From the human T2T-CHM13v2.0 reference genome, Homo sapiens, in NCBI RefSeq assembly GCF_009914755.1, contig NC_060930.1: 64,000 nt of DNA; one strand, written 5' to 3'. Shown here piece after piece: positions 1,789 to 37,283 of this stretch (the first letter of the stretch is position 1; each line of letters begins with the position of its first letter). The notes under the pieces are model-generated. The model was not told the origin of the DNA and searched no databases. It was given only the letters and a program-made list of their open reading frames with translations. The position numbers and the translations under genes were made by a program.

Positions 1789-2989
1789 ATCTTCATAATA
1801 TATTCTGTACTTAGATTCTCCTATTATTTCCCATCCTATATTTAAATGTAGAGGCTCTACCTAAGTCCTATGAGTTATCCCTCATTTTTCTTTATAGAAT
1901 TAGAAAATAACTTCTATGAAATGAACCATGCCTGTAGAATCATGAGATAATAAGTAAAAATTAGGTAAATCTTAGAATAATGAAGATAATTTTTAAAAGG
2001 TGTACAATTGTATCATGAGGATAATAGCAGGTAGAATGTGAGAAGGCTTTTCTTATTGGAGTACCAAGTGTTCTTTTGGTAATAACTCCAAATTTAAATT
2101 TGAATAACATATTTAATTTAAATAAATTCTATGCATTTTTTAGTCTATTTTAATGTAGTTTTCAACACAAATTATTAACTTACTCATATACTTTTGCTTA
2201 CTTTATGAACTGCCAATTATATATTTCGCTGTTTTCCTCAATTAAATTCTTCATACACTTCACAACTCAGTTGACTTTTACATTAATGAAAATCTTTTTC
2301 TCAGAAAACAGAATGCAAGCAAATTTAAAGTGGTATAATAATTTCATTTCTCCCATTTATTTTGTATCCTTTAATCCTATTTTCTGTTTTGGGATTCCTC
2401 TACACAAATTTTTTCAGCCTTTGCTAAAATAAAATAGAAAACTACATGAAGCACACGTTCAACTAACAGCTATTTGTTGATCGATTGATTATTAGATTGA
2501 CTGAGTCATTCATTCTTATTTAAAAGTACCATGTCGAATGCATTTTCTTACTGTCATGAGCCATTTAACTAATTAGGGTAATATTTATATTATCTAAATC
2601 TTAGCTATAAAAGAAATACTAGAATATTAATTAGTATACCTGTGTTTTAGTTTTGGTCAATTATCAATTTTTACAAATTATTAAATATTTCTGGAAGGAG
2701 GTTACTCATCTGTAAGATTATATGGGTATAGTAAATGATCTCAAGTTTTTGGGTTGTTTTATCATAAAATTATGTTAATTTTTACTTTGCAAGCATGTTT
2801 ATCTTAATTAACTATAATGCCTCACATTACACATATAAATTTCATGAATGTCACTACGATACATAGATTTTCCTAGATCTCAGAAATTAATGAAATATTT
2901 ATTATGAAAATCAGAGTAATATTTTATTCTTTATTGGGTACCTTTATTCTTTATTGGGTACCTATTAGCTTTCTATCACTGAAGGGATG

Positions 2990-3702
2990 TGTATATATAT
3001 GTGTATATATATCTTTATATATATATTTCAATATATAATATATATCTTTATATACAATATATATTATATATTATATATATTATATTATATTAATATATAT
3101 AATATATAATATATAATATATATAATATATAATATAATATATATTATATATAATATAATATATATATTAATATAATATATATAAATATAATATATATTAT
3201 ATATATTTATATATATAAAATATATGATATATAATGTATAATATATGATATATAATGTATAATATATCATATATAATGTATAATGTATGATATATAGTGT
3301 ATAATATATACTATATATTATGCATAATATATACTATATATTATGCATAATGTATAGTATATATTATGCATAATGTATGCTATATATTATGCATAATGTA
3401 TACTATATATTATGCATAATGTATACTATATATTATGTATAATGTATACTATATATTATGTATAATGTATAATATATTTATGTATAATATATATTATGTA
3501 TAATATATAATATCTTTATATATAATATGTAATATATATTTATGTCAATTTATATTATAAATATAATATAATTCATATATTATATATATTATTAATATGA
3601 TATAATTTATATATAATATATTATTTTATTATTAATATATTATTTTATTATTAATAGTATATAGAGATATATTATTATATATTATATATAAATATATATA
3701 TA
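2990..3702. repeat. AT-rich compound micro/minisatellite
   Basis: About 700 bp of almost pure A/T, including tandem ~19-bp units and ~23-bp units (tatactatatattatgcataatg). Confidence 0.95.
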
Positions 3703-5899
3703 AAACAATTTTTTATCATTTGAGAAAAATGAGGTGTAAGAAAATTGTGCTATTTGTCCTTTGATAAGGAAGCTAGTAAATCTTGAAGTCATATTTGCAT
3801 CCTTAACTGCCATGATATATTGTTTTCCAAAACTGAGGAAGAGAAAACAAGCACATTTATTGATATAGCACAAATGTTGACTGATAGTGTTCTTTATGAT
3901 CAAATATCTGGTCTTCAGTTTTCTTAAGAACTCAATATTTTCCTATAAATAGTATAACATTCTAAGATTTCTTTCCCTAAATTTTGAGCTATCATTAATA
4001 AAAGTGACTTGTTAACTATTGTTATGTCAAATGTAAATGGATGCATATTAATTTAAAAATTTAGATGCCTTGTTAAAAATATTACTTATAGCTGAGTTGC
4101 TCTATGAATCAATCTAATTGGACTTAACAGAAGTAGATAATTTTAATTGAAAAAAATGACTAGAATAGTTTTGAAACATCATTATTAATGTCAGGTATAC
4201 GTAGAAAGTGTATTTAACATTGATATCTCACTTCTAAGAGATAATGTTTTAAATATTAAAATGAAAATTGCTTTGTGTAGCTTTTTAAAACAATTATTTT
4301 AAAGAATCTTTCAACTTTATTATTTATTTTGTACAGTGTTGAGTCTGCTCTTCATCTGAATTATCCAAAAAATAATTATATGTATTTGTTATTCTAGTTT
4401 GAAATGAATAAATTTATAGCTTACTTGTCATTATCATTGATGAGAATTTCTATATTGATAACTTATTATTGTGATTTAAAATAAGAAAAATAAAATTTTA
4501 TCCAAAATATTTATCAATGAATCTTTTACTGACAAACATTACAAAGATGAGTAATTATATTATGTGTTTTAAAAATTCAACTTATCTCTCCACAAACTGA
4601 AATTTTTAAAAATATGGTCACACTTATAATTGTCTAATATAACTTCAATTGACTTGATTATTATTAAAAGTTAAATTTATTTTTTTAAGAAATGTGTAAA
4701 TAATTGCTAACTGTTTCTTCGCTTTCTAATGAATAATTTTACCAACTTCCATAAACTTCAGTTGTTCTATGTAATTATAAAATGTGATATCTGGGCCCCC
4801 AGAAAATAATCATATTTTTACTTTAAACATTAATATTTAAAATGTTTATATGCTCTAGTAGTCTTATTAAAAAAAGAAAGCCACTCCAACATTTTAAGTG
4901 TACAAACAACTGAAACAGAATGTTTACATTTCTTAAAGATTATAAGTCATAATATATTACAAATGTAAAATTGTGCCTTTGTCACATGTGACTCCTATAG
5001 CCATATATGACATATGTTTGGATCTAAAGTGCAAAAATATAATTTGGAATATCAATGAATATCAAATGTATGATAGCATTAGAATTTATTTGGAATTTGG
5101 AAGAGTTCATTCCCCATCTCAACAATATGTAATAAACATAATTGTTTATAAATAATGTTTTTTTCAGAATTTTTTTTACTCCAAATACTTTATATATAGA
5201 TATAATACGATTTAGTTAACTAATTATTGATTTACTTGTATTGTACAATCTTTCTTTTGCATTACATAAAATAATACCATGTTGAATATCATTTACTTAA
5301 GTCTATGTTTATCTTCTGTATCTTTCTTAGGATAACTCAAAAGACATGAATTTTAGGTCAAGTATATATATATATATTTGACAAAATATATACATATCTG
5401 ACAAAATATGTGTATATTTGACACACACATATACATATTTGACATATATATGTGTGTGTATATATATATATATATATATTTAAGGCTTTTAGGACACATT
5501 ATTGAGTTGTCTTGAGAAATGTGCCAATGTCTTTTTTTCAGAGCAACAAATTTTCTTTAATCTGCTCTTAGCCTACTGCCTAGTTCTCCAAATCTTTCCT
5601 ATATCTTGTTCACATTACTGGCCTTCTTTTAGTCCATTTGACATATTAGGCTCTTGTTTATTTTCCAGACTAGGTCTATCTACATTTGCCATTCTCACTA
5701 CATGCAGTGCCACTAACCACTCCCTCTCTAATCCCTGCTCTTTATACAGATATTTATTTAAATGTACATTCCAAGAAAAGCCTTTGCTGGTATCTCAAGT
5801 CCTGACGTTACATAGTATTGTCGAACTCTGTGTTTATCTGTAGCACTTCACTTGATTTCTAAATATGTATAAATAAAAAGGTTTCAATAGCATTAGATG

Positions 5900-6899: not shown

Positions 6900-8430
6900 A
6901 TAAAAATCATGGAAATCTTGTAAAAATATATTAAGATATATACATTATTTTTCATATTACTTGAATGAATTTTCAAATTATAAAGCCCTAAACTATGTCC
7001 ACAAAAGTTACTAAAATTAAAAAGAGGTGAGCTAGGTTCCTGGATACAAAATAAATATAAATATATCACCTGAATTTTATGTATAAGACAAACAGATAAA
7101 AATAAAATTTTGTGAAAGCTCAAGTGAATAAATAAATAAATTATATTCTCAGATTGGAGAACTTAGTATTGTAAAAACAACAATTTCTGAAAAGTCATTT
7201 AATTTAATGCAATTCCATTTAAAATCCCAACCGATGTTGGGGGAACTTGAAAGCTGTTTTAAAATTTTGTAGTCTCCCCGAAAAAACTGGGAGACTCTCA
7301 ATAAAGAACAAAGCAAGAAAAAAAAATCAGGTAGGAAGATCCACCTTGCCAAATATCTAGACTTATTTTGATCTTATAGTAATTAATTCAGCATGTTATT
7401 GATTCCAGAATAGATATAGACCACCAACACAAAAATATAAACTTCAATAACATAGTATATAATATAGATAAATCCTTCATACATGACAGAGATGGCGTTG
7501 ACAAGCGCTGGGGAAAGGATTATCTCTTCAATTGACAAAGGACAATTGCATATTTATGAGAAAGAGAATGCCTAATTGAACCCCTGACACACACCTTATT
7601 GAATAATCATATGTATTCAATGCTTAAATATGAAAAGTTAAAGTAAGGCTTTTAAAAGCAAGTCTTATATGAAATTTAACAGAATATCTTCACAACCTTG
7701 GGATTGTAAGGGATTTCTTAAACAAGAAAGCAACAACACTAGGGGGTAAAAGAAAAAAAGAAAAGGAAAAACTAGACCAATGCACTAATGTTCTCATTAT
7801 AATTGTTATAGTCAGCAATTTTTTTGTGACCAACAGATAATATTTAAATATGTTCATAACAGTTTGAACGTACAATTTTATGTATATTGAATCTAATTCT
7901 TAAATTGTATTTGTATTTGGAAAATCTTTGTTTTCTATTACACATTTATACATATATATACATTTTCTATTTTTTATATACATATATATATACACACACA
8001 TGCATTTACTCAAGTATCAGCAAACTAAAGACAGTAATTTTTTTAACGCTATACAATGAGAGAAGTGGTAAAATAGACATTAAAATTTTTAAAAAATCTA
8101 TTCAGTGAAAGACATTCTAAGATTAAAAACACAATGCAAGGTATGGGAGATATGCAGCATATTAATTGCCAAGAGAGTTTAGTGTTGAGAAATTCTTAAT
8201 CATTGTAAATAATCAAATCAACTAGAAAAACTGGCAAAAACAATCTTCAGAAAAACAAACATAAATAAACACTTTATGAGGATTCCTCAATGTCTGATAA
8301 CACGAGAATTGCTCAACTTTATGATCCTCAGGAAAATGAATGTTAAAATTATGATATCAGCAGATCATCAAATGTTTAAAAGTCTCACAATTTTAAATGT
8401 CAGCAAGGTTGCTGACCAGCAGGAGCACTG
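6900..8430 (+). mobile_element. Ancient L1M/L1ME ORF2 fragments
   Basis: Degenerate ORF2-like segments (gattggagaacttagtattgtaaaa, tttaatgcaattccatttaaaatcccaa, gctggggaaaggattatctcttcaat). Confidence 0.6.
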
Positions 8431-8489
8431 GACAAACAAGACTTCAATTCCCTTTAGAAATCTCATTGGTATTTATGGCTATAAATAGG

Positions 8490-8902
8490 AATGACATATG
8501 AAAATATTATGCTAAGTGTAAAAAGCCACACACAGAAATAAAAATATTGTACATGATCTCACATGTAGCATCTAAAATAAAAAGAAAAAGTTGAGTACAT
8601 AGACACAGAGAGCAGAACAGTTGTTGAGAATGGGGAGATGTTGCCAAAGGGCACCAAGTTGCAATAAAGTATGATGACTATGTCTGGAGATCTAATGTAA
8701 AGCATGATAATTAGAGTTAATAATACTGTGTCATATACTGGAAATTTGCTGAAAAAGCAGACTTATTTGCTTTTACCACACACTCATACACATACACAAA
8801 AGTGTGAGATGATGTATATGTTACTTGGCTTCACTGTAGTAATCAATTCGCTGGGTATATTTACATAAAAAAGTCATGATTTACATCATATATACATGAA
8901 AC
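8490..8902 (+). mobile_element. L1MA (L1MA8/9-like) 3' end
   Basis: attatgctaagtg...ggagatctaatgtaaagcatg...aataatactgtgtcatatactggaaatttgctg; the A-tail has decayed into the following GA-rich repeat. Confidence 0.8.
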
Positions 8903-9082
8903 AAGAAAGAAGGGGAGAAGAAAAGAAGGAAGGAAGGAAGAAAGGGAGGGAGGGAGGGAAGAAGAAATAAAGGAAGGGAAGGGAAGGGAGGGGAAGGGGA
9001 GGGGAGGGGAACGAAGGGAAGGGAAAGGGAAGGGAGGGGAAGAAGGGAGGGAGGAAGGGGGTGAAGGGAAAGGAAAGGAAAA
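8903..9082 (+). repeat. Polypurine (GGAA/GGGAA/GGGA)n microsatellite
   Basis: Seen directly; positioned as the tail of the upstream L1. Confidence 0.95.
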
Positions 9083-10180
9083 TGAGCAAGGTAGCTGCTC
9101 ATGGGTGGCATTCACTAAAGCTAAACATATTCCATGAGGAGCAATTCCAAACTGACGGAAATGCTTAGAGGCCACTCAAAATAATAGGAAGTGGAGCCCA
9201 ACTTGTCATGGTAGCACAGTAAAAATATGTAAAGGCCCAACACTAGCAGGTCGGATAAAGAAATGGCGGTGCGGCCGTGGTGGGAAAGAGTAACCATCAG
9301 TGAAAACCAACCAGCCACCACTGTGGGCACCCTCACTCATGCAGCGAGCAGGTGGACAGTGCCCCTGTCCCCTCTGAGTCCCCTGGGATCTGCAGGACTG
9401 TTCAAGGACAGATTCCCTTATAAATTCAGTAAGGTCTTGGAATCAGGGTCTTTCTGGTTCACAAATCATCTCTTTCTTTGGGCATTAGAGGAGTCCTGTG
9501 GAGTCAAAGCATAATGCAGAATCTGGCCAACAATGGGAGGTACAGGGGTCCTAAGGCCAGGCTAGGGTTGGGTCAGCCGTAGAGCCCTACTGGGCACCAG
9601 GCACAGGGCCCTCAGGTTTGGCTATGGCTTGGAACAGTGGGTCCTGCTGCTTTAAAGATTCCCAAGTGGCTGGGCCAAAGGAATGACAAAAGAATTGCAA
9701 AAATTTGCCGCTCTCTCCTAACACGGAACCCACAGGTGCGGGGCTCCCCCAGTATGTGCCAGGCACCCTCGCCTCCCTCACCTCACTCCACTATCACTGG
9801 AGCTGATGCTGTAGCTGCTGCCTAGAGTATCTGGCCTGGCTTTTCTCATGCCACACCGGTATTTGGTGCTCCTTCAGGTGGAGACTTTTGGCCCAACTGA
9901 GCCTGCCAGCCCAGTGCTTTCCCTTCTGGTAGGTTGGGTATTTGTTCTATTCAAAATAAAGCTCTTGAAGCTGTTTCTTTCTGTGGACCATGGGTTTCTG
10001 CTGCTGTTTTCTTGGGCACCCTGGGCATGATGGGAAGTCCATGAGATATCTTGCATCTTTGTCCCTGATTTGTTTCTTGTAGATGAGGCTGTCCTCACAA
10101 GACCCTGGCTTAAATGCTTCCCTCCAAGCTGTGCCCATCCAAGCCCACTCTGCTGGTGCTGATGCCAACCCTGTCTCACC
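9083..10180 (-). pseudogene. Processed pseudogene of a TPRX-family (tetrapeptide-repeat homeobox, PRD class) gene; CDS remnant 10056->9418, homeobox 10006->9815
   Basis: The minus strand reads MQD at ATG 10056. After a frameshift it continues PRKQQQKPMVHRKKQLQELYFE*NKYPTYQKGKHWAGRLSWAKSLHLKEHQIPVWHEKSQARYSRQQLQ, then LGIFKAAGPTV, GAQ*GSTADPTLAWP*DP and VNQKDPDSKTLLNL*. These are collinear with recalled human TPRX1 motifs (MQDPG, PRRQRQERTVY, YFQKDQYPNY, LREQQLQVWFKNRRAK, GILPAAEPT, LWPQSPD, VNENHSGPRLLLDL*). No intron is present at the PRD-class codon 46/47 position (9857/9856). Multiple stops and frameshifts; GC-rich island in an AT-rich context. Confidence 0.85.
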
Positions 10181-10744
10181 ATATGTTTTTTAAATAGAGA
10201 TATATTGCATAAACACACTTAATAGTCACACAATAATCACACAAACAATAGTCAAGTGGCAAATATTGAATATAGGTAAAGAATTTAAATAATATAACTA
10301 ACAACGTTTATAAAGACATATTTTATACATAATTTCATGATATTTGATTTAACATTCTACTTCTTGGACTATGGAACGCTTGCTGTGCGGTATCAGTTGG
10401 AAATATATAGCAAGAGTGAATGTGTTCATCAACAAGTCAATGTTTTAATTTCACATTTTATCAGTCAGCTTTTGAAATGTTCTAAAAGTTCCTTGCTAGC
10501 ACATTGAGAACATGACTTTTTGAATTACATCATGTATTTTGATATAAGGTGATTTGGCAGTACTTTGGGTTCTTTAGACAGAAAGCTTTCTAAAATTGTA
10601 ACATTATTAATTCTCTTAACTTGTCCCTCAATTTTACTTGGCTGACATAATGACAAGGAAAATGCCCGGAGGACACAGGAATAATAACATAAGGTATCTT
10701 TGAAAGAAATAAAATATATATTTCTGGTTTGCATCATTTTAGGA

Positions 10745-27483: not shown

Positions 27484-29293
27484 AAGCTATCATCTTGACA
27501 GTTGCCCTTTAATTCATTTTTAGGCGTGACCTTGCACAATATGCAAGAAAACAGAACAAAGATGTAAATGGTGGTGTTCCCATGTATAAGATCTCTTTGG
27601 ATACTTGTTTGCCCCTGTAAAGCCGCAGCCCGCAGCTAAAATACGTAAGATTCAGTTAAAGTAGTGTTCTCTTTACTTTCTCTTATTTTATAATTTTTTA
27701 TGACAAAGCACCAAGAATAAAAATTTTGCAGGAAAACACACATTCCTTAAATAGAGAATATTTTTACAGAGTCTGATTTTTCTAGAATATAATTTACAAC
27801 ACTATGGTAAAATTCATTCCGTTCTCTGATATTGAAAAGGATAATTTCAATCAAAACAATTAATGTTCAAGATGACAAATGAAATAGTCTGTCATTCTCC
27901 AGCGCATTTTTTTCCCTACTTATTCCGTTCTTGGGAGACTTAGCATCAATCACTATATGATGATCTTCTCTTCTTGCCATCTGAACATTTTGCAGGAGTC
28001 AAATGCATGTTTTGCAACTTTGGTTTTAGACTTTGGGGTCCAGTTAGCCAGTCTAAATACTGTGTTTTGGTTTTCTGTTATGTTGGAATGCCACAATGGC
28101 CCATTACTTCTGGTATTCACATCTTCGTGTAGTACACTCTTCTTGAATATGAGGTGGGCCTGAAACTTGCTTTAATCGATAGAATGCAGTGGAAACATTG
28201 CTGCCGTATTTCAGACCTAAAACTTAAGAAGCCCTGGCAGCTTCTGCTTTTGCATTCCTGGGAGCCCCAGCTTCTATGTAAGAAGTGTGGCATCTCTGCT
28301 AGAGACACTGTGTGTTAAGGCCACGTGAAGAGAACCTATAGAGAAACAGAAACCCTTAGACTACTGGAAGACAGCCAATGAGCCCGACTAAAAGAGAAAA
28401 TTTAAGTCCCAGACACGTGACCCAAGCTGAGCCATTTTGAGCTACATACATGTCTGAAGCATGTGAGTGAAAAAGCCATTTGGACATTGTAACATCAGCA
28501 TATCACTCCCCTATGACATCATGAGAAATGATGAAGGAGTAGTTCTTTTAAGCCCTTACATTTTAGGGTGATTTGTTACACAGCCACATTTAATCAGAAT
28601 ATTTCTATTCCCTTTACTGTCTTTGCATGTTAAAGAATAATATAGGATTTATTTTTCACAACTAATAATACATGGGGCCCTCTCCAATCCTGATATTCTG
28701 TTTTTCTCTAGCAGTTCTGGCCTCTACTCAGTCTTTCAAATTGAGACTTACTAAAAGACAGGTTAGTATAAATTCCAAGAAAATAACTCTTCCTCTGTTA
28801 GTGGCTTCAAGTCTTTTTTTCTTTAAAGAAGAGTTTTATATGATTATCTGGAAGCATTGGCTATTCTTTCTTGAAGCAAAGATACTTTTTCATATTTCTC
28901 TTATTTTTGACTTCCTGGTGAAGGAGAACAATATACAGATTATAAAAGTTCCTAAGTGAGGCTGAGAGAAAGAGAAAAGAACTTGAACTTGGCAAAACAT
29001 GCCCCAATCAAGAAAACAGAATTTCCTTGGCATCCTTTGATCTTCCTAGGTTTTAGGTAAGGACTCAGATGATACTTCATTTATTCATCTCATTTATTCA
29101 TTCACTGAGGTTTCAACAAACTTGCAGAGAACTCTACGATGTGTCGAAATACTATTTAAATATCTGTTTCTTTTTTTAAAACCTTTTAGTAACTACTTAA
29201 ATATAAAGTAATCAAGTTCAAGAACCATCTATTTCTCCAAGATCCCTTAAAGTGAACTGGATTTCTTTTAATCCATGAAAGTCATGACGTTAC
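27484..29293 (-). other. 1.8-kb 3'-transduced flank carried by the younger L1PA
   Basis: Bounded by a T run (27473-27483) with a minus-strand ATTAAA at 27508-27513, and by the L1's own (TAA)n tail. The whole unit lies inside the TSD gtttcttgacttttt. Confidence 0.88.
28076..28602 (+). mobile_element. MLT1 (G/H-like) LTR inside the transduced segment
   Basis: aagaagccctggcagcttctgctttt...tttaagcccttacattttagggtgatttgttacacagc. Confidence 0.75.

Positions 29294-37283
<7,990 letters not shown>

What the first reader, a model, noticed from the sequence alone, without database searches (positions are those of the whole stretch)
9083..10180. Hidden TPRX-family homeobox retrocopy spread over several broken frames
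Seen: a 1.1-kb GC-rich island whose minus strand has an MQD start (10056), a 64-codon degenerate homeobox (10006-9815) and an LLNL* end (9418). The ORF track splits it into unrecognisable fragments. The N-terminal arm CAG CAG CAG AAA CCC ATG GTC CAC is what mutation, largely at CpG sites, would make of QRQERTVY. Established: TPRX genes are CRX-derived eutherian PRD-class homeobox genes expressed around embryonic genome activation, and they carry an intron between homeobox codons 46 and 47. That junction is contiguous here (CCG|GTG TGG, 9857/9856), and an L1-endonuclease-type TTTTTT/AA follows the 5' end (10186-10193). Inference: an old processed pseudogene recording germline or cleavage-stage expression of the parent. 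I cannot tell whether it is already annotated.
Basis: partly seen in the sequence, partly recalled or inferred. Interest (0 to 1): 0.8.

Follow-up and report, generated by a model that had tools for sequence, protein, structure and literature searches.

The report
Ancient TPRX homeobox processed pseudogene
This stretch of human chromosome 6 is a very old, dead, intron-less copy of a TPRX early-embryo homeobox gene that the published human homeobox lists I checked do not include.

Summary
The minus strand of 10180..9097 matches TPRX1/TPRX2 (chr19) and TPRXL (chr3) in order, from 116 nt upstream of the ATG into the 3'UTR. The match covers the MQD start, a 64-codon decayed homeobox, the C-terminal block and the parental stop codon. 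nhmmer profiles built from the TPRX loci hit only this place in the window (E 1.6e-27 and 5.9e-27). Both parental introns (841 and 523 bp in TPRX1) are absent.

The copy is longer than reported. A later poly(A)-type repeat fragment with a (GGAA)n tail (8465-9096, + strand) splits it. The distal 3'UTR resumes at 8464 and runs to about 8109 (E 2.4e-20).

It is the most diverged TPRX copy in the genome: K2P 0.52 to TPRX1, against 0.29 for TPRXL. The interrupting repeat has itself drifted about 0.17, so the copy is roughly 100 My old.

The reading frame is dead: frameshifts, an in-frame TAG, and loss of F49, N51 and R53. No poly(A) tail or matching target-site duplication survives.

The catalogues I read list human TPRX retrocopies only on chromosomes 3 and 10. 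I could not check GENCODE. This is a new member of a known kind, of modest interest.

The parts
10181..10194 (-). Candidate insertion site. On the minus strand, TTT (10194-10192) is followed by an 11-nt A-rich stretch (10191-10181) that abuts the first homologous base. This is the layout expected for an L1-endonuclease TT/AAAA site and a 5' target-site duplication.
   Evidence: Sequence. Homology to TPRX1 begins at 10180. No second copy lies near the 3' end: the 15-mer search gave 7 window matches against 7.1 expected, none of them there. TTTTAA occurs 1.7 times per kb, so the chance of one within 20 bp is about 0.03. Suggestive only.
10057..10180 (-). 5'UTR remnant, homologous to TPRX1 genomic positions -116 to -1 relative to the ATG.
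   Evidence: Local alignment score 36, against a shuffle mean of 10.5 and maximum of 16.5. blastn gives 68.5% identity over 111 nt. The nhmmer profile A hit starts at 10172.
10007..10056 (-). Start codon (ATG 10056-10054, MQD) and N-terminal coding remnant. It is 50 nt long against 57 nt in the parental mRNA, so the ATG is out of frame with the homeobox. The exon 1/exon 2 junction lies at about 10039/10038 with no intron.
   Evidence: TPRX1 has an 841-bp intron at this point (TPRX1g 2186-3026).
9815..10006 (-). Decayed homeobox of 64 codons. It has an in-frame TAG at 9949-9947, a 6-nt deletion in helix 1 and an 18-nt insertion before helix 3. W48 is kept; F49, N51 and R53 are lost. The homeodomain 46/47 intron site (9857/9856) is contiguous.
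   Evidence: Nucleotide identity is 111/174 to each of TPRX1, TPRX2 and TPRXL, and 90/174 to CRX. TPRX1 has a 523-bp intron at 46/47 (TPRX1g 3197-3719).
9559..9814 (-). Linker between the homeobox and the C-terminal block. TGA at 9796-9794 closes the homeobox frame. The tetrapeptide-repeat array of the modern genes is missing: this linker is about 257 nt, against 480 (TPRX2), 915 (TPRX1) and 1031 (TPRXL).
   Evidence: MAFFT alignment. Lengths are my arithmetic from the indices printed. blastn matches 9675-9555 to TPRX2 at 65.9%.
9418..9558 (-). C-terminal coding block. It ends with ...FVNQKDPDSKTLLNL and TAA (9420-9418) at the position of the parental stop codon, has an internal stop, and lacks the middle of the block.
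   Evidence: Compare TPRX2 ...DGFVDKNHSVPRSLLDL*.
9097..9417 (-). Proximal 3'UTR of the retrocopy.
   Evidence: nhmmer profile B positions 2-453 match 9558-9097, E 5.9e-27. blastn to TPRXL gives 63.3% over 226 nt at 9318-9105.
8465..9096 (+). Later insertion that splits the retrocopy. It is a fragment of an old dispersed poly(A)-type repeat (body about 8472-8901, most likely a 5'-truncated LINE-1 3' end). Its tail has become a (GGAA)n-like microsatellite (8902-9088). It is flanked by an imperfect 8-bp direct repeat (8464-8471 and 9097-9104, 6 of 8 bases).
   Evidence: The profile resumes exactly where it broke, at positions 453 and 450. The genome has 1386 candidate places; 40 were scored, and the 39 non-self ones show 67-78% identity. 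Four of 11 copies run on to a shared AATAAAGCT-type end with an A run. TRF rows cover 8898-9080. No Pfam or PDB support for ORF2 was found in the fragment itself.
8109..8464 (-). Distal 3'UTR of the retrocopy. It includes a decayed polyadenylation signal (ATTAAT at 8166-8161, where the parent has ATTAAA). The end is uncertain, between about 8146 and 8084. No poly(A) tract follows.
   Evidence: nhmmer 8464-8262, E 2.4e-20. blastn gives 67.7% to the chr10 copy and 64.7% to TPRX1. 8181-8109 aligns to TPRX1g 5409-5478 with score 25, against shuffles of 13 +/- 1.7 and a maximum of 21. Sequence.

Best explanation
This is a processed pseudogene (retrocopy) of a TPRX-family homeobox gene. TPRX genes are the CRX-derived, eutherian-specific genes that flank CRX on chromosome 19.

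Inferred history: a spliced TPRX mRNA present in the germ line or the early embryo was reverse-transcribed, most likely by LINE-1 machinery. It was inserted on the minus strand of what is now T2T chr6:68,394,109-68,396,191, in an AT-rich gene desert.

The insertion happened roughly 100 million years ago, near the origin of placental mammals. That is before the TPRXL (chr3) and TPRX1P1-type (chr10) retrocopies arose. The copy was never functional, or soon stopped being so, and decayed neutrally. Later a poly(A) retroposon fragment landed in its 3'UTR, and that fragment's tail grew into a (GGAA)n microsatellite.

Shown here: homology along the whole transcript, absence of both introns, a disabled frame, the interruption, and the relative divergence. 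Inferred: the L1-mediated mechanism, the absolute age, and germ-line or cleavage-stage expression of the parent at that time.
For: Family assignment
- In a whole-genome six-frame search, the best non-self hit of the homeodomain read-through is the chr3 intronless locus (E 7.8e-4, residues 1-87). A chr19 exon also matches (query 12-68), ending one residue past the homeodomain 46/47 boundary.
- The loci are identified from the literature. The two chr19 loci flank a locus whose translation equals the cone-rod homeobox protein sequence. Their orientations match the published definition of TPRX1 (upstream of CRX, inverted) and TPRX2 (downstream, same strand) (PMC8208926, passages). The published TPRX1/2 forward primer (PMC4944136, table passage) is present in both loci.
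- blastn segments match in the same order along TPRXL, TPRX1 and TPRX2. They run from the 5'UTR to the 3'UTR at 60-68% identity, with E from 3e-11 to 6e-7 in a 45-kb database.
- nhmmer E values are 1.6e-27, 5.9e-27 and 2.4e-20. The next-best hit in the window is E 4.4e-5, in an L1.
- Homeobox nucleotide identity is 63.8% to TPRX1/2/L and 51.7% to CRX.

Retroposition
- The 841-bp and 523-bp TPRX1 introns are absent.
- The copy is on a different chromosome from the parent genes.
- A TT/AAAA-type site abuts the 5' end of the homology.

Age
- K2P to TPRX1 is 0.52 over 860 columns, against 0.29 for TPRXL-TPRX1. Over 429 3' columns it is 0.44, against 0.155 (TPRXL) and 0.16 (chr10).
- ML trees place chr6 outside TPRXL, chr10, TPRX1 and TPRX2 when rooted on its long branch.
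- CpG observed/expected is 0.167, the same as the flanks.
- The repeat that interrupts the copy has its own branch of about 0.17.

Not derived from TPRXL
- The chr6 5' homology to TPRX1 reaches -116 from the ATG. That of TPRXL reaches only -29.

Dead gene
- The ATG is out of frame with the homeobox. There is a TAG inside the homeobox and a TGA just after it. WFKNRRAK has become WHEKSQAR.
Against: - No poly(A) tract and no matching 3' target-site duplication were found. The hallmarks of L1-mediated insertion are therefore incomplete.
- The Pfam homeodomain match is below the curated cut-off: 18.5 against 22.9 bits.
- A whole-genome search with the TPRX2 C-terminal peptide did not recover the chr6 locus. 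It gave 4 matches from 5 candidates, on chr19 twice, chr3 and chr10.
- The homeobox-only tree does not put chr6 outside the other TPRX copies. It groups chr6 with TPRX1/2 at 86/89 support. The AU test does not reject the alternative (p 0.142).
- The tetrapeptide array that names the family is absent.
- The 5' and 3' ends extend beyond those captured by the younger retrocopies. This needs a different transcript start and cleavage site in the ancestor.
- The absolute age rests on recalled neutral rates and on a GC-rich insert decaying in AT-rich DNA, which inflates distances.
- No non-human sequence could be examined.
Confidence: 0.93

Rival explanations
1. It is a retrocopy of a different CRX-derived gene: CRX itself, LEUTX, DPRX, ARGFX, PARGFX or a lost 'ghost' paralogue. 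The TPRX likeness would then reflect only shared homeobox ancestry.
For: All these genes are CRX-derived, and all spawn retrocopies. A DPRX retrocopy is listed on human chromosome 6 (PMC8208926 Table S3b). The best named solved structure is CRX. The homeobox tree is weak.
Against: The listed chr6 DPRX copy, DPRXP2, is at 6p21.31, not on 6q (PMC2211742). The similarity to TPRX1/2/L lies mostly outside the homeobox: 5'UTR, MQD start, C-terminal block with the stop codon, and about 700 nt of 3'UTR. Homeobox identity to TPRX exceeds that to CRX, 63.8% against 51.7%. I did not align the island directly to the LEUTX, DPRX or ARGFX loci. In the whole-genome protein search no hit other than the two TPRX loci was on chr19, and all were weak (E 0.08 or higher), but I did not identify those loci.
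Confidence: 0.03
2. It is a secondary copy of the intronless TPRXL locus, made either from DNA or by retroposition of TPRXL transcripts. It would then not be a direct retrocopy of the chr19 gene.
For: TPRXL is the best protein hit. It is the closest sequence over the 3' columns, K2P 0.40 against 0.44 for TPRX1. In the unrooted five-sequence tree chr6 joins on the TPRXL side.
Against: The chr6 copy carries 5' sequence homologous to TPRX1 genomic positions -116 to -30, which TPRXL lacks. It also carries 3' sequence past the cleavage site where the chr10 copy's alignable similarity to the window stops; the TPRXL flank gives no score above shuffles. As sister copies the two would have very unequal branch lengths, about 0.45 against 0.07. 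It also lacks TPRXL's own Gln- and Ser-rich repeats.
Confidence: 0.03
3. The homeobox likeness is chance in a GC-rich island of some other origin, such as a degraded repeat or an old CpG island.
For: The Pfam score is below the gathering cut-off. The C-terminal peptide search missed the locus.
Against: Profile hits reach E 1e-27 and follow the order of the whole transcript. They break and resume exactly around an insertion. A genome-wide DNA search finds no other copy of the island.
Confidence: 0.01

Closest known systems
TPRXL (3p25.1), the intronless retrotransposed TPRX copy
   Same: It is intronless and carries the MQD start, the homeobox, the C-terminal block and the 3'UTR in one piece. 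It is the best genome-wide protein hit of the chr6 copy.
   Different: TPRXL has an open 172-aa frame through an intact homeobox and its own Gln- and Ser-rich repeats. It is much younger, K2P 0.29 to TPRX1 against 0.52 for chr6. Its homology begins at -29, not -116. It is catalogued (PMC2211742).
TPRX1P1 / TPRX1P2 (10q22.3), processed pseudogenes of TPRX1
   Same: They are processed TPRX copies on another chromosome. The chr10 locus found here (C10:80.37 Mb) aligns to the same 3' part of the transcript.
   Different: The published copies lack the homeobox (PMC2211742). The chr10 locus covers only the 3' 0.85 kb at 84% identity to TPRX1. The chr6 copy is near full length, keeps a homeobox and is far more diverged.
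TPRX1 and TPRX2 (19q13.32), the presumed parent lineage
   Same: The exon content and order are the same. The start codon context, the intron positions (after the short first coding exon, and at homeodomain 46/47) and the stop codon position match. The L1-like distal 3'UTR matches too.
   Different: The parents have introns, intact frames and long PIPG-type tetrapeptide arrays. The human pair is homogenised, with homeoboxes 180/180 identical. It therefore cannot be told which of the two, or their common ancestor, was the source.
DPRXP2 (6p21.31), the only ETCHbox (CRX-derived homeobox) retrocopy listed on human chromosome 6
   Same: It is a processed pseudogene of a CRX-derived embryonic homeobox gene on chromosome 6 (PMC2211742; PMC8208926 Table S3b).
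   Different: It comes from a different family (DPRX) and lies on a different arm (6p21.31). The window is at 68.4 Mb of T2T chromosome 6, which I place on 6q12 by recall of band limits.

Membership tests
Homeobox / homeodomain (Pfam PF00046) | Profile match at or above the curated score | tested here: not met
   E 0.0018 and 18.5 bits against a cut-off of 22.9. Residues 26-76 match profile positions 8-54 of 57. This fits a decayed homeobox, not a working domain.
Homeobox / homeodomain (Pfam PF00046) | Conserved helix-3 residues W48, F49, N51 and R53 | tested here: not met
   WFKNRRAK in TPRX1/2/L and CRX reads WHEKSQAR here. Only W48 is kept.
TPRX family (CRX-derived ETCHbox genes) | Homeobox closer to TPRX than to CRX or other PRD-class genes | tested here: met
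   Identity is 111/174 to each of TPRX1, TPRX2 and TPRXL, and 90/174 to CRX. TPRXL is the best non-self genome hit and the only one at E<0.01; TPRX2 also matches but weakly (E 4.9, tenth of 11). Other ETCHbox genes were not aligned directly.
TPRX family (CRX-derived ETCHbox genes) | Family-specific sequence outside the homeobox: short first coding exon starting MQD, C-terminal block and stop position, and 3'UTR | tested here: met
TPRX family (CRX-derived ETCHbox genes) | Tetrapeptide (PIPG-type) repeat array between the homeobox and the C-terminus | tested here: not met
   The array is absent, with about 257 nt in its place. TRF finds no such array. It may never have expanded in the ancestor, or it may have been lost by deletion.
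Processed pseudogene (retrocopy) | Parental introns absent, with exon junctions contiguous | tested here: met
   Both TPRX1 introns (841 bp and 523 bp) are missing.
Processed pseudogene (retrocopy) | 3' poly(A) tract | tested here: not met
   No A run follows the decayed ATTAAT signal. The nearest are A5 at 8090-8086 and A7 near 8040.
Processed pseudogene (retrocopy) | Flanking target-site duplication at an L1-endonuclease-type site | tested here: inconclusive
   A TTT/AAAAAA motif abuts the 5' end. No 3' partner was found at up to 3 mismatches. The motif alone has a chance of about 0.03 per 20 bp.
Processed pseudogene (retrocopy) | Disabled reading frame, on a different chromosome from the parent | tested here: met
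   Frameshift between the ATG and the homeobox, TAG in the homeobox, TGA after it, and stops in the C-terminal block. The copy is on chr6 and the parent on chr19.
LINE-1 3' end (the interrupting element, 8465-9096) | High-copy dispersed repeat that ends in a polyadenylation signal and an A-rich tail | tested here: met
   1386 candidate places, 39 scored non-self copies at 67-78% identity. Four of 11 copies share an AATAAAGCT-type end plus an A run, and 3 more are followed by A-rich sequence. The window copy is followed by a purine-rich microsatellite.
LINE-1 3' end (the interrupting element, 8465-9096) | Homology to LINE-1 ORF2 at its 5' edge | tested here: inconclusive
   No Pfam family was found. 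No PDB ORF2p match was found. The likeness to the ORF2 C-terminus is by eye and recall only.

The most novel reading that the evidence does not exclude
The chr6 copy may be a stem-eutherian or basal-placental 'fossil' of TPRX. If so, it is the oldest ETCHbox (CRX-derived homeobox) retrocopy in the human genome, made before or about when TPRX1 and TPRX2 separated. It would preserve the early gene's state:
- no tetrapeptide array;
- a transcript that starts at least 116 nt upstream of the ATG and ends past the modern cleavage site;
- a 3'UTR already built on an antisense L1 fragment.

It would then be direct evidence that TPRX was transcribed in the germ line or the totipotent embryo at the dawn of placental mammals. 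It would also serve as an outgroup for reconstructing how CRX turned into TPRX.
Probability: 0.35. Interest if true: 0.5.

Novelty: new member of a known kind. Interest (0 to 1): 0.35.

Why it matters
TPRX genes are fast-evolving regulators of human embryonic genome activation. They arose from CRX in the placental stem lineage. Because they evolve so fast, and because TPRX1 and TPRX2 overwrite each other by gene conversion, their early history is hard to read from living genes.

A near full-length retrocopy frozen about 100 My ago is an independent sample of the ancestral transcript: its start, its end, the length of its linker, and the L1-derived 3'UTR. It is also a dated record of germ-line or early-embryo expression.

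It would add one homeobox-bearing locus to the human homeobox catalogue. That catalogue lists TPRX retrocopies only on chromosomes 3 and 10.

The locus itself has no sign of present function, so the value is evolutionary and for annotation only.

Tried and rejected
- A DNA search of the genome with the island found only itself. It is too insensitive for 60-68% identity.
- The search for homologous proteins with the TPRXL homeodomain region returned nothing: 13 candidates, none at E<=0.001.
- The search of earlier findings was not open.
- The search for a target-site duplication failed. A 15-mer at up to 3 mismatches gave 7 matches against 7.1 expected, none near the 3' end.
- I first read the L1-like distal 3'UTR as sense LINE-1. 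The plus-strand translation of the window L1 (29289-31622) gave 0 PDB matches. The minus strand gave LINE-1 ORF2p at E 0. The TPRX 3'UTR piece is therefore antisense L1. Its own antisense translation matches ORF2p only at E 0.11.
- Pfam on read-through translations found nothing. I tried two genomic copies of the interrupting repeat, the fragment itself, and the window L1 on the wrong strand.
- The idea that the 18-nt homeobox insertion is a tandem duplication got no support from TRF.
- The homeobox-only tree was uninformative.
- Rival readings considered and rejected: another ETCHbox (CRX-derived homeobox) parent, a TPRXL-derived copy, and chance. See the rival explanations.
Full report
**What is there**

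Window 9100-10199 is a GC island: 0.455-0.57 GC in 200-nt windows, against 0.20-0.37 around it. On the minus strand, one frame from 10189 to 9794 reads ...PRKQQQKPMVHRKKQLQELYFE*NKYPTYQKGKHWAGRLSWAKSLHLKEHQIPVWHEKSQARYSRQQLQHQLQ*.

- ATG CAA GAT at 10056.
- A 64-codon homeobox at 10006-9815.
- CCG|GTG at 9857/9856.
- LLNL followed by TAA at 9420-9418.
- TTTTTT/AAA on the + strand at 10186-10194.

**Is it a homeobox, and which one?**

- Pfam Homeodomain matches at E 0.0018 and 18.5 bits. That is below the curated 22.9, as expected for a wreck.
- The best named solved structure is cone-rod homeobox protein (9b8u_A, E 0.0048). That alignment shows a six-residue insertion before helix 3.
- The window's genome is held and is the human T2T assembly.
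- A six-frame search with the 87-residue read-through (X at the TAG) scored 20 candidates and returned 11 at E<=10. After the self hit, the best is C3:14065972-14066223, at E 7.8e-4 and 37% identity over all 87 residues, inside an open 172-aa frame.
- A chr19 exon (C19:50691052-50691210) also matches (query residues 12-68, E 4.9), ending one residue past the homeodomain 46/47 boundary.

**Naming the relatives**

- Searching with the chr3 homeodomain finds two chr19 exons at 58% identity on opposite strands (50.634 Mb minus, 50.691 Mb plus). A 45% hit lies between them at 50.667 Mb.
- The middle locus translates to the cone-rod homeobox protein sequence.
- Published work defines TPRX1 as upstream of CRX and inverted, and TPRX2 as downstream on the same strand (PMC8208926, passages). 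It places TPRXL at 3p25.1 and TPRX1P1/P2 at 10q22.3 (PMC2211742, table passages).
- The published TPRX1/2 forward primer (PMC4944136, table passage) is present in both chr19 loci.
- The chr19 loci encode QRQERTVYTESQQKVLEFYFQKDQYPNYDQRLNLAEMLSLREQQLQ|VWFKNRRAK..., long PIPG-type repeats and a C-terminus ending ...SLLDL*.
- A search with the C-terminal peptide finds chr19 twice, chr3 and chr10, but not chr6.

**Homology along the whole transcript**

blastn of the island against these loci gives segments in the same order.

| Locus | Window segments | Identity |
|---|---|---|
| TPRXL | 10084-9797, 9512-9369, 9318-9105 | 60-67% |
| TPRX1 | 10156-10049, 9670-9534, 9483-9369 | 64-68% |
| TPRX2 | three segments, as for TPRX1 | 66-69% |

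E values range from 3e-11 to 6e-7. The alignment with spliced TPRX1/2 and TPRXL shows four things:
- the start codon context is conserved;
- the N-terminal arm CAG CAG CAG AAA CCC ATG GTC CAC lies opposite CAG CGG CAG GAG CGC ACG GTC TAC;
- the C-terminal block ends at the same stop position;
- the 3'UTR is alignable.

Profiles built from TPRX1, TPRX2 and TPRXL, plus chr10 for the 3' part and without chr6, were run over the 64-kb window with nhmmer. They hit 10172-9795 (E 1.6e-27) and 9558-9097 (E 5.9e-27).

**Retroposition**

In TPRX1 the short first coding exon ends after MQDPGHLQ(G). It is followed by an 841-bp intron. The homeobox is split after codon 46 by a 523-bp intron. In the window both junctions are contiguous. 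The ATG-to-homeobox distance is 50 nt, against 57 nt in the spliced parent.

Homology to TPRX1 genomic DNA begins sharply at 10180, which is -116 from the ATG. Immediately upstream lie 11 A-rich bases preceded by TTT. This is the layout expected for a 5' target-site duplication at a TT/AAAA L1-endonuclease site. However, no 3' partner was found, and the motif alone has a chance of about 0.03 per 20 bp here.

**The copy is longer than reported**

The 3' profile breaks at position 453 (window 9097). It resumes at position 450 at window 8464 and runs to 8262 (E 2.4e-20). Weaker alignment continues to 8109 against TPRX1, or 8084 against TPRX2.

The 632 bp in between read on the + strand and make up a later insertion:
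- 8465-8901 belongs to a dispersed repeat. It has 1386 candidate places; 40 were scored, and the 39 non-self ones show 67-78% identity.
- Four of 11 inspected copies run on to a shared AATAAAGCT-type end and an A run.
- In the window it is followed by the (GGAA)n-like microsatellite at 8902-9088.
- It is flanked by an imperfect 8-bp direct repeat.

I read it as a 5'-truncated LINE-1 3' end whose tail became the microsatellite. The ORF2 likeness at its edge is by eye only; Pfam and PDB gave nothing. This also explains why the purine-rich repeat lies on the 'wrong' strand to be the retrocopy's own tail.

After the decayed signal ATTAAT (8166-8161, where the parent has ATTAAA), no poly(A) tract survives.

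**Age**

| Comparison | Columns | K2P |
|---|---|---|
| chr6 - TPRX1 | 860 | 0.52 |
| TPRXL - TPRX1 | 860 | 0.29 |
| TPRX1 - TPRX2 | 860 | 0.10 |
| chr6 - TPRX1 | 429 (3' part) | 0.44 |
| TPRXL - TPRX1 | 429 (3' part) | 0.155 |
| chr10 - TPRX1 | 429 (3' part) | 0.16 |

The other age evidence is:
- ML trees of these columns put chr6 on a long branch (0.31-0.38, plus 0.14-0.15) outside the others.
- CpG observed/expected is 0.167, the same as the flanks.
- The interrupting repeat copy has its own branch of about 0.17 under a star-tree approximation.

With neutral rates that I recall, about 2e-9 per site per year, and which no call tested, the insertion is on the order of 100 My old. That is near the base of placental mammals. 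The literature read here places the origin of TPRX in the eutherian stem (PMC4904359, section 5 read whole).

Two caveats apply. A GC-rich insert in AT-rich DNA decays faster at first. The parent also evolves fast.

The homeobox-only tree with CRX as outgroup is uninformative. It groups chr6 with TPRX1/2 at 86/89, with AU p 0.142 for the alternative. Human TPRX1 and TPRX2 homeoboxes are identical, 180/180. The source paralogue therefore cannot be named.

**State**

The gene is dead:
- The ATG is out of frame with the homeobox.
- There is a TAG at homeodomain codon 20, a 2-codon deletion and a 6-codon insertion.
- WFKNRRAK has decayed to WHEKSQAR.
- A TGA follows the homeobox, and there are stops in the C-terminal block.
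- The tetrapeptide array is missing, with about 257 nt in its place against 480-1031 nt in the relatives.

**Is it known?**

The hub's RefSeq table for the window has no gene here. The literature I read gives the following:
- The 2007 catalogue of 300 human homeobox loci lists TPRX1, TPRX2P, TPRX1P1, TPRX1P2 (the last two without a homeobox) and TPRXL. Its only 6q entries found by my term search are POU3F2 (6q16.2) and NANOGP11 (6q25.2). DPRXP2 is at 6p21.31 (PMC2211742, passages).
- The 2011 survey repeats the same TPRX list (PMC3141429, passages).
- A 2015 manual annotation lists the same five loci (PMC4584094, supplement file 2 passages). One of its supplement files could not be searched.
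- The 2021 survey gives human TPRX1/TPRX2 retrocopies on chromosomes 3 and 10 only (PMC8208926, Table S3b). Its PDF supplement could not be read.
- Searches for further TPRX pseudogene symbols found nothing new.

GENCODE, pseudogene.org and repeat libraries could not be consulted, so prior annotation cannot be excluded.

**Verdict**

This is an ancient, near full-length processed pseudogene of a TPRX-family homeobox gene. It extends beyond the reported span and is split by a later retroposon. It is a new member of a known kind, with modest evolutionary interest as a possible basal-placental fossil of TPRX.

Noticed in passing
window 8464-8109; L047 (TPRX1), L048 (TPRX2), L049 (TPRXL) and L050 (chr10) 3'UTR ends: The last 200 nt or so of the TPRX 3'UTR, including the polyadenylation signal, looks like an antisense LINE-1 ORF2 fragment. 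The evidence is weak nhmmer hits to L1s in the window (29928-30061, E 4.4e-5) and an antisense translation of the TPRX1 3'UTR that hits ORF2p residues 1043-1135 at only E 0.11. The chr6 fossil carries the same piece, so it was in the parent gene before retroposition.
   Followed up: partly
window 10180-10057, against L047 and L049: The chr6 copy's 5' homology to TPRX1 genomic DNA reaches -116 from the ATG. It includes a TTTAAG-like box. TPRXL's clear homology starts at -29. The older transcript therefore seems to have started further upstream. At the 3' end, homology runs 35-60 nt past the cleavage site used by the chr10 copy.
   Followed up: partly
window 9900-9917 (within the homeobox): There is an 18-nt in-frame insertion before helix 3 (WAGRLS next to WAKSLH). 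By eye it looks like an old tandem duplication, but TRF reports nothing there.
   Followed up: partly
window 29288-31621, minus strand: This is a young-looking LINE-1 3' half. Its read-through translation matches human LINE-1 ORF2p residues 588-1275 at E 0, with long open pieces of up to 211 aa.
   Followed up: partly
G000 C15:78917130-78917312 (-), C3:61127934-61128134 (-), CX:147840795-147840986 (+) and CX:148059897-148060088 (-): These are weak matches to the chr6 homeodomain (E 0.08-4.7) with stops inside them. They may be other decayed homeobox pseudogenes or chance.
   Followed up: no
window 7939-7990 and 8777-8798: Short TA-rich and CACATA microsatellites lie just downstream of the retrocopy's 3' end and inside the interrupting repeat.
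   Followed up: no
L047 and L048 (chr19): The human TPRX1 and TPRX2 homeoboxes are identical, 180/180 nt. Their transcripts differ by K2P 0.10 overall. This fits the published gene conversion between them (PMC8208926 passages).
   Followed up: partly
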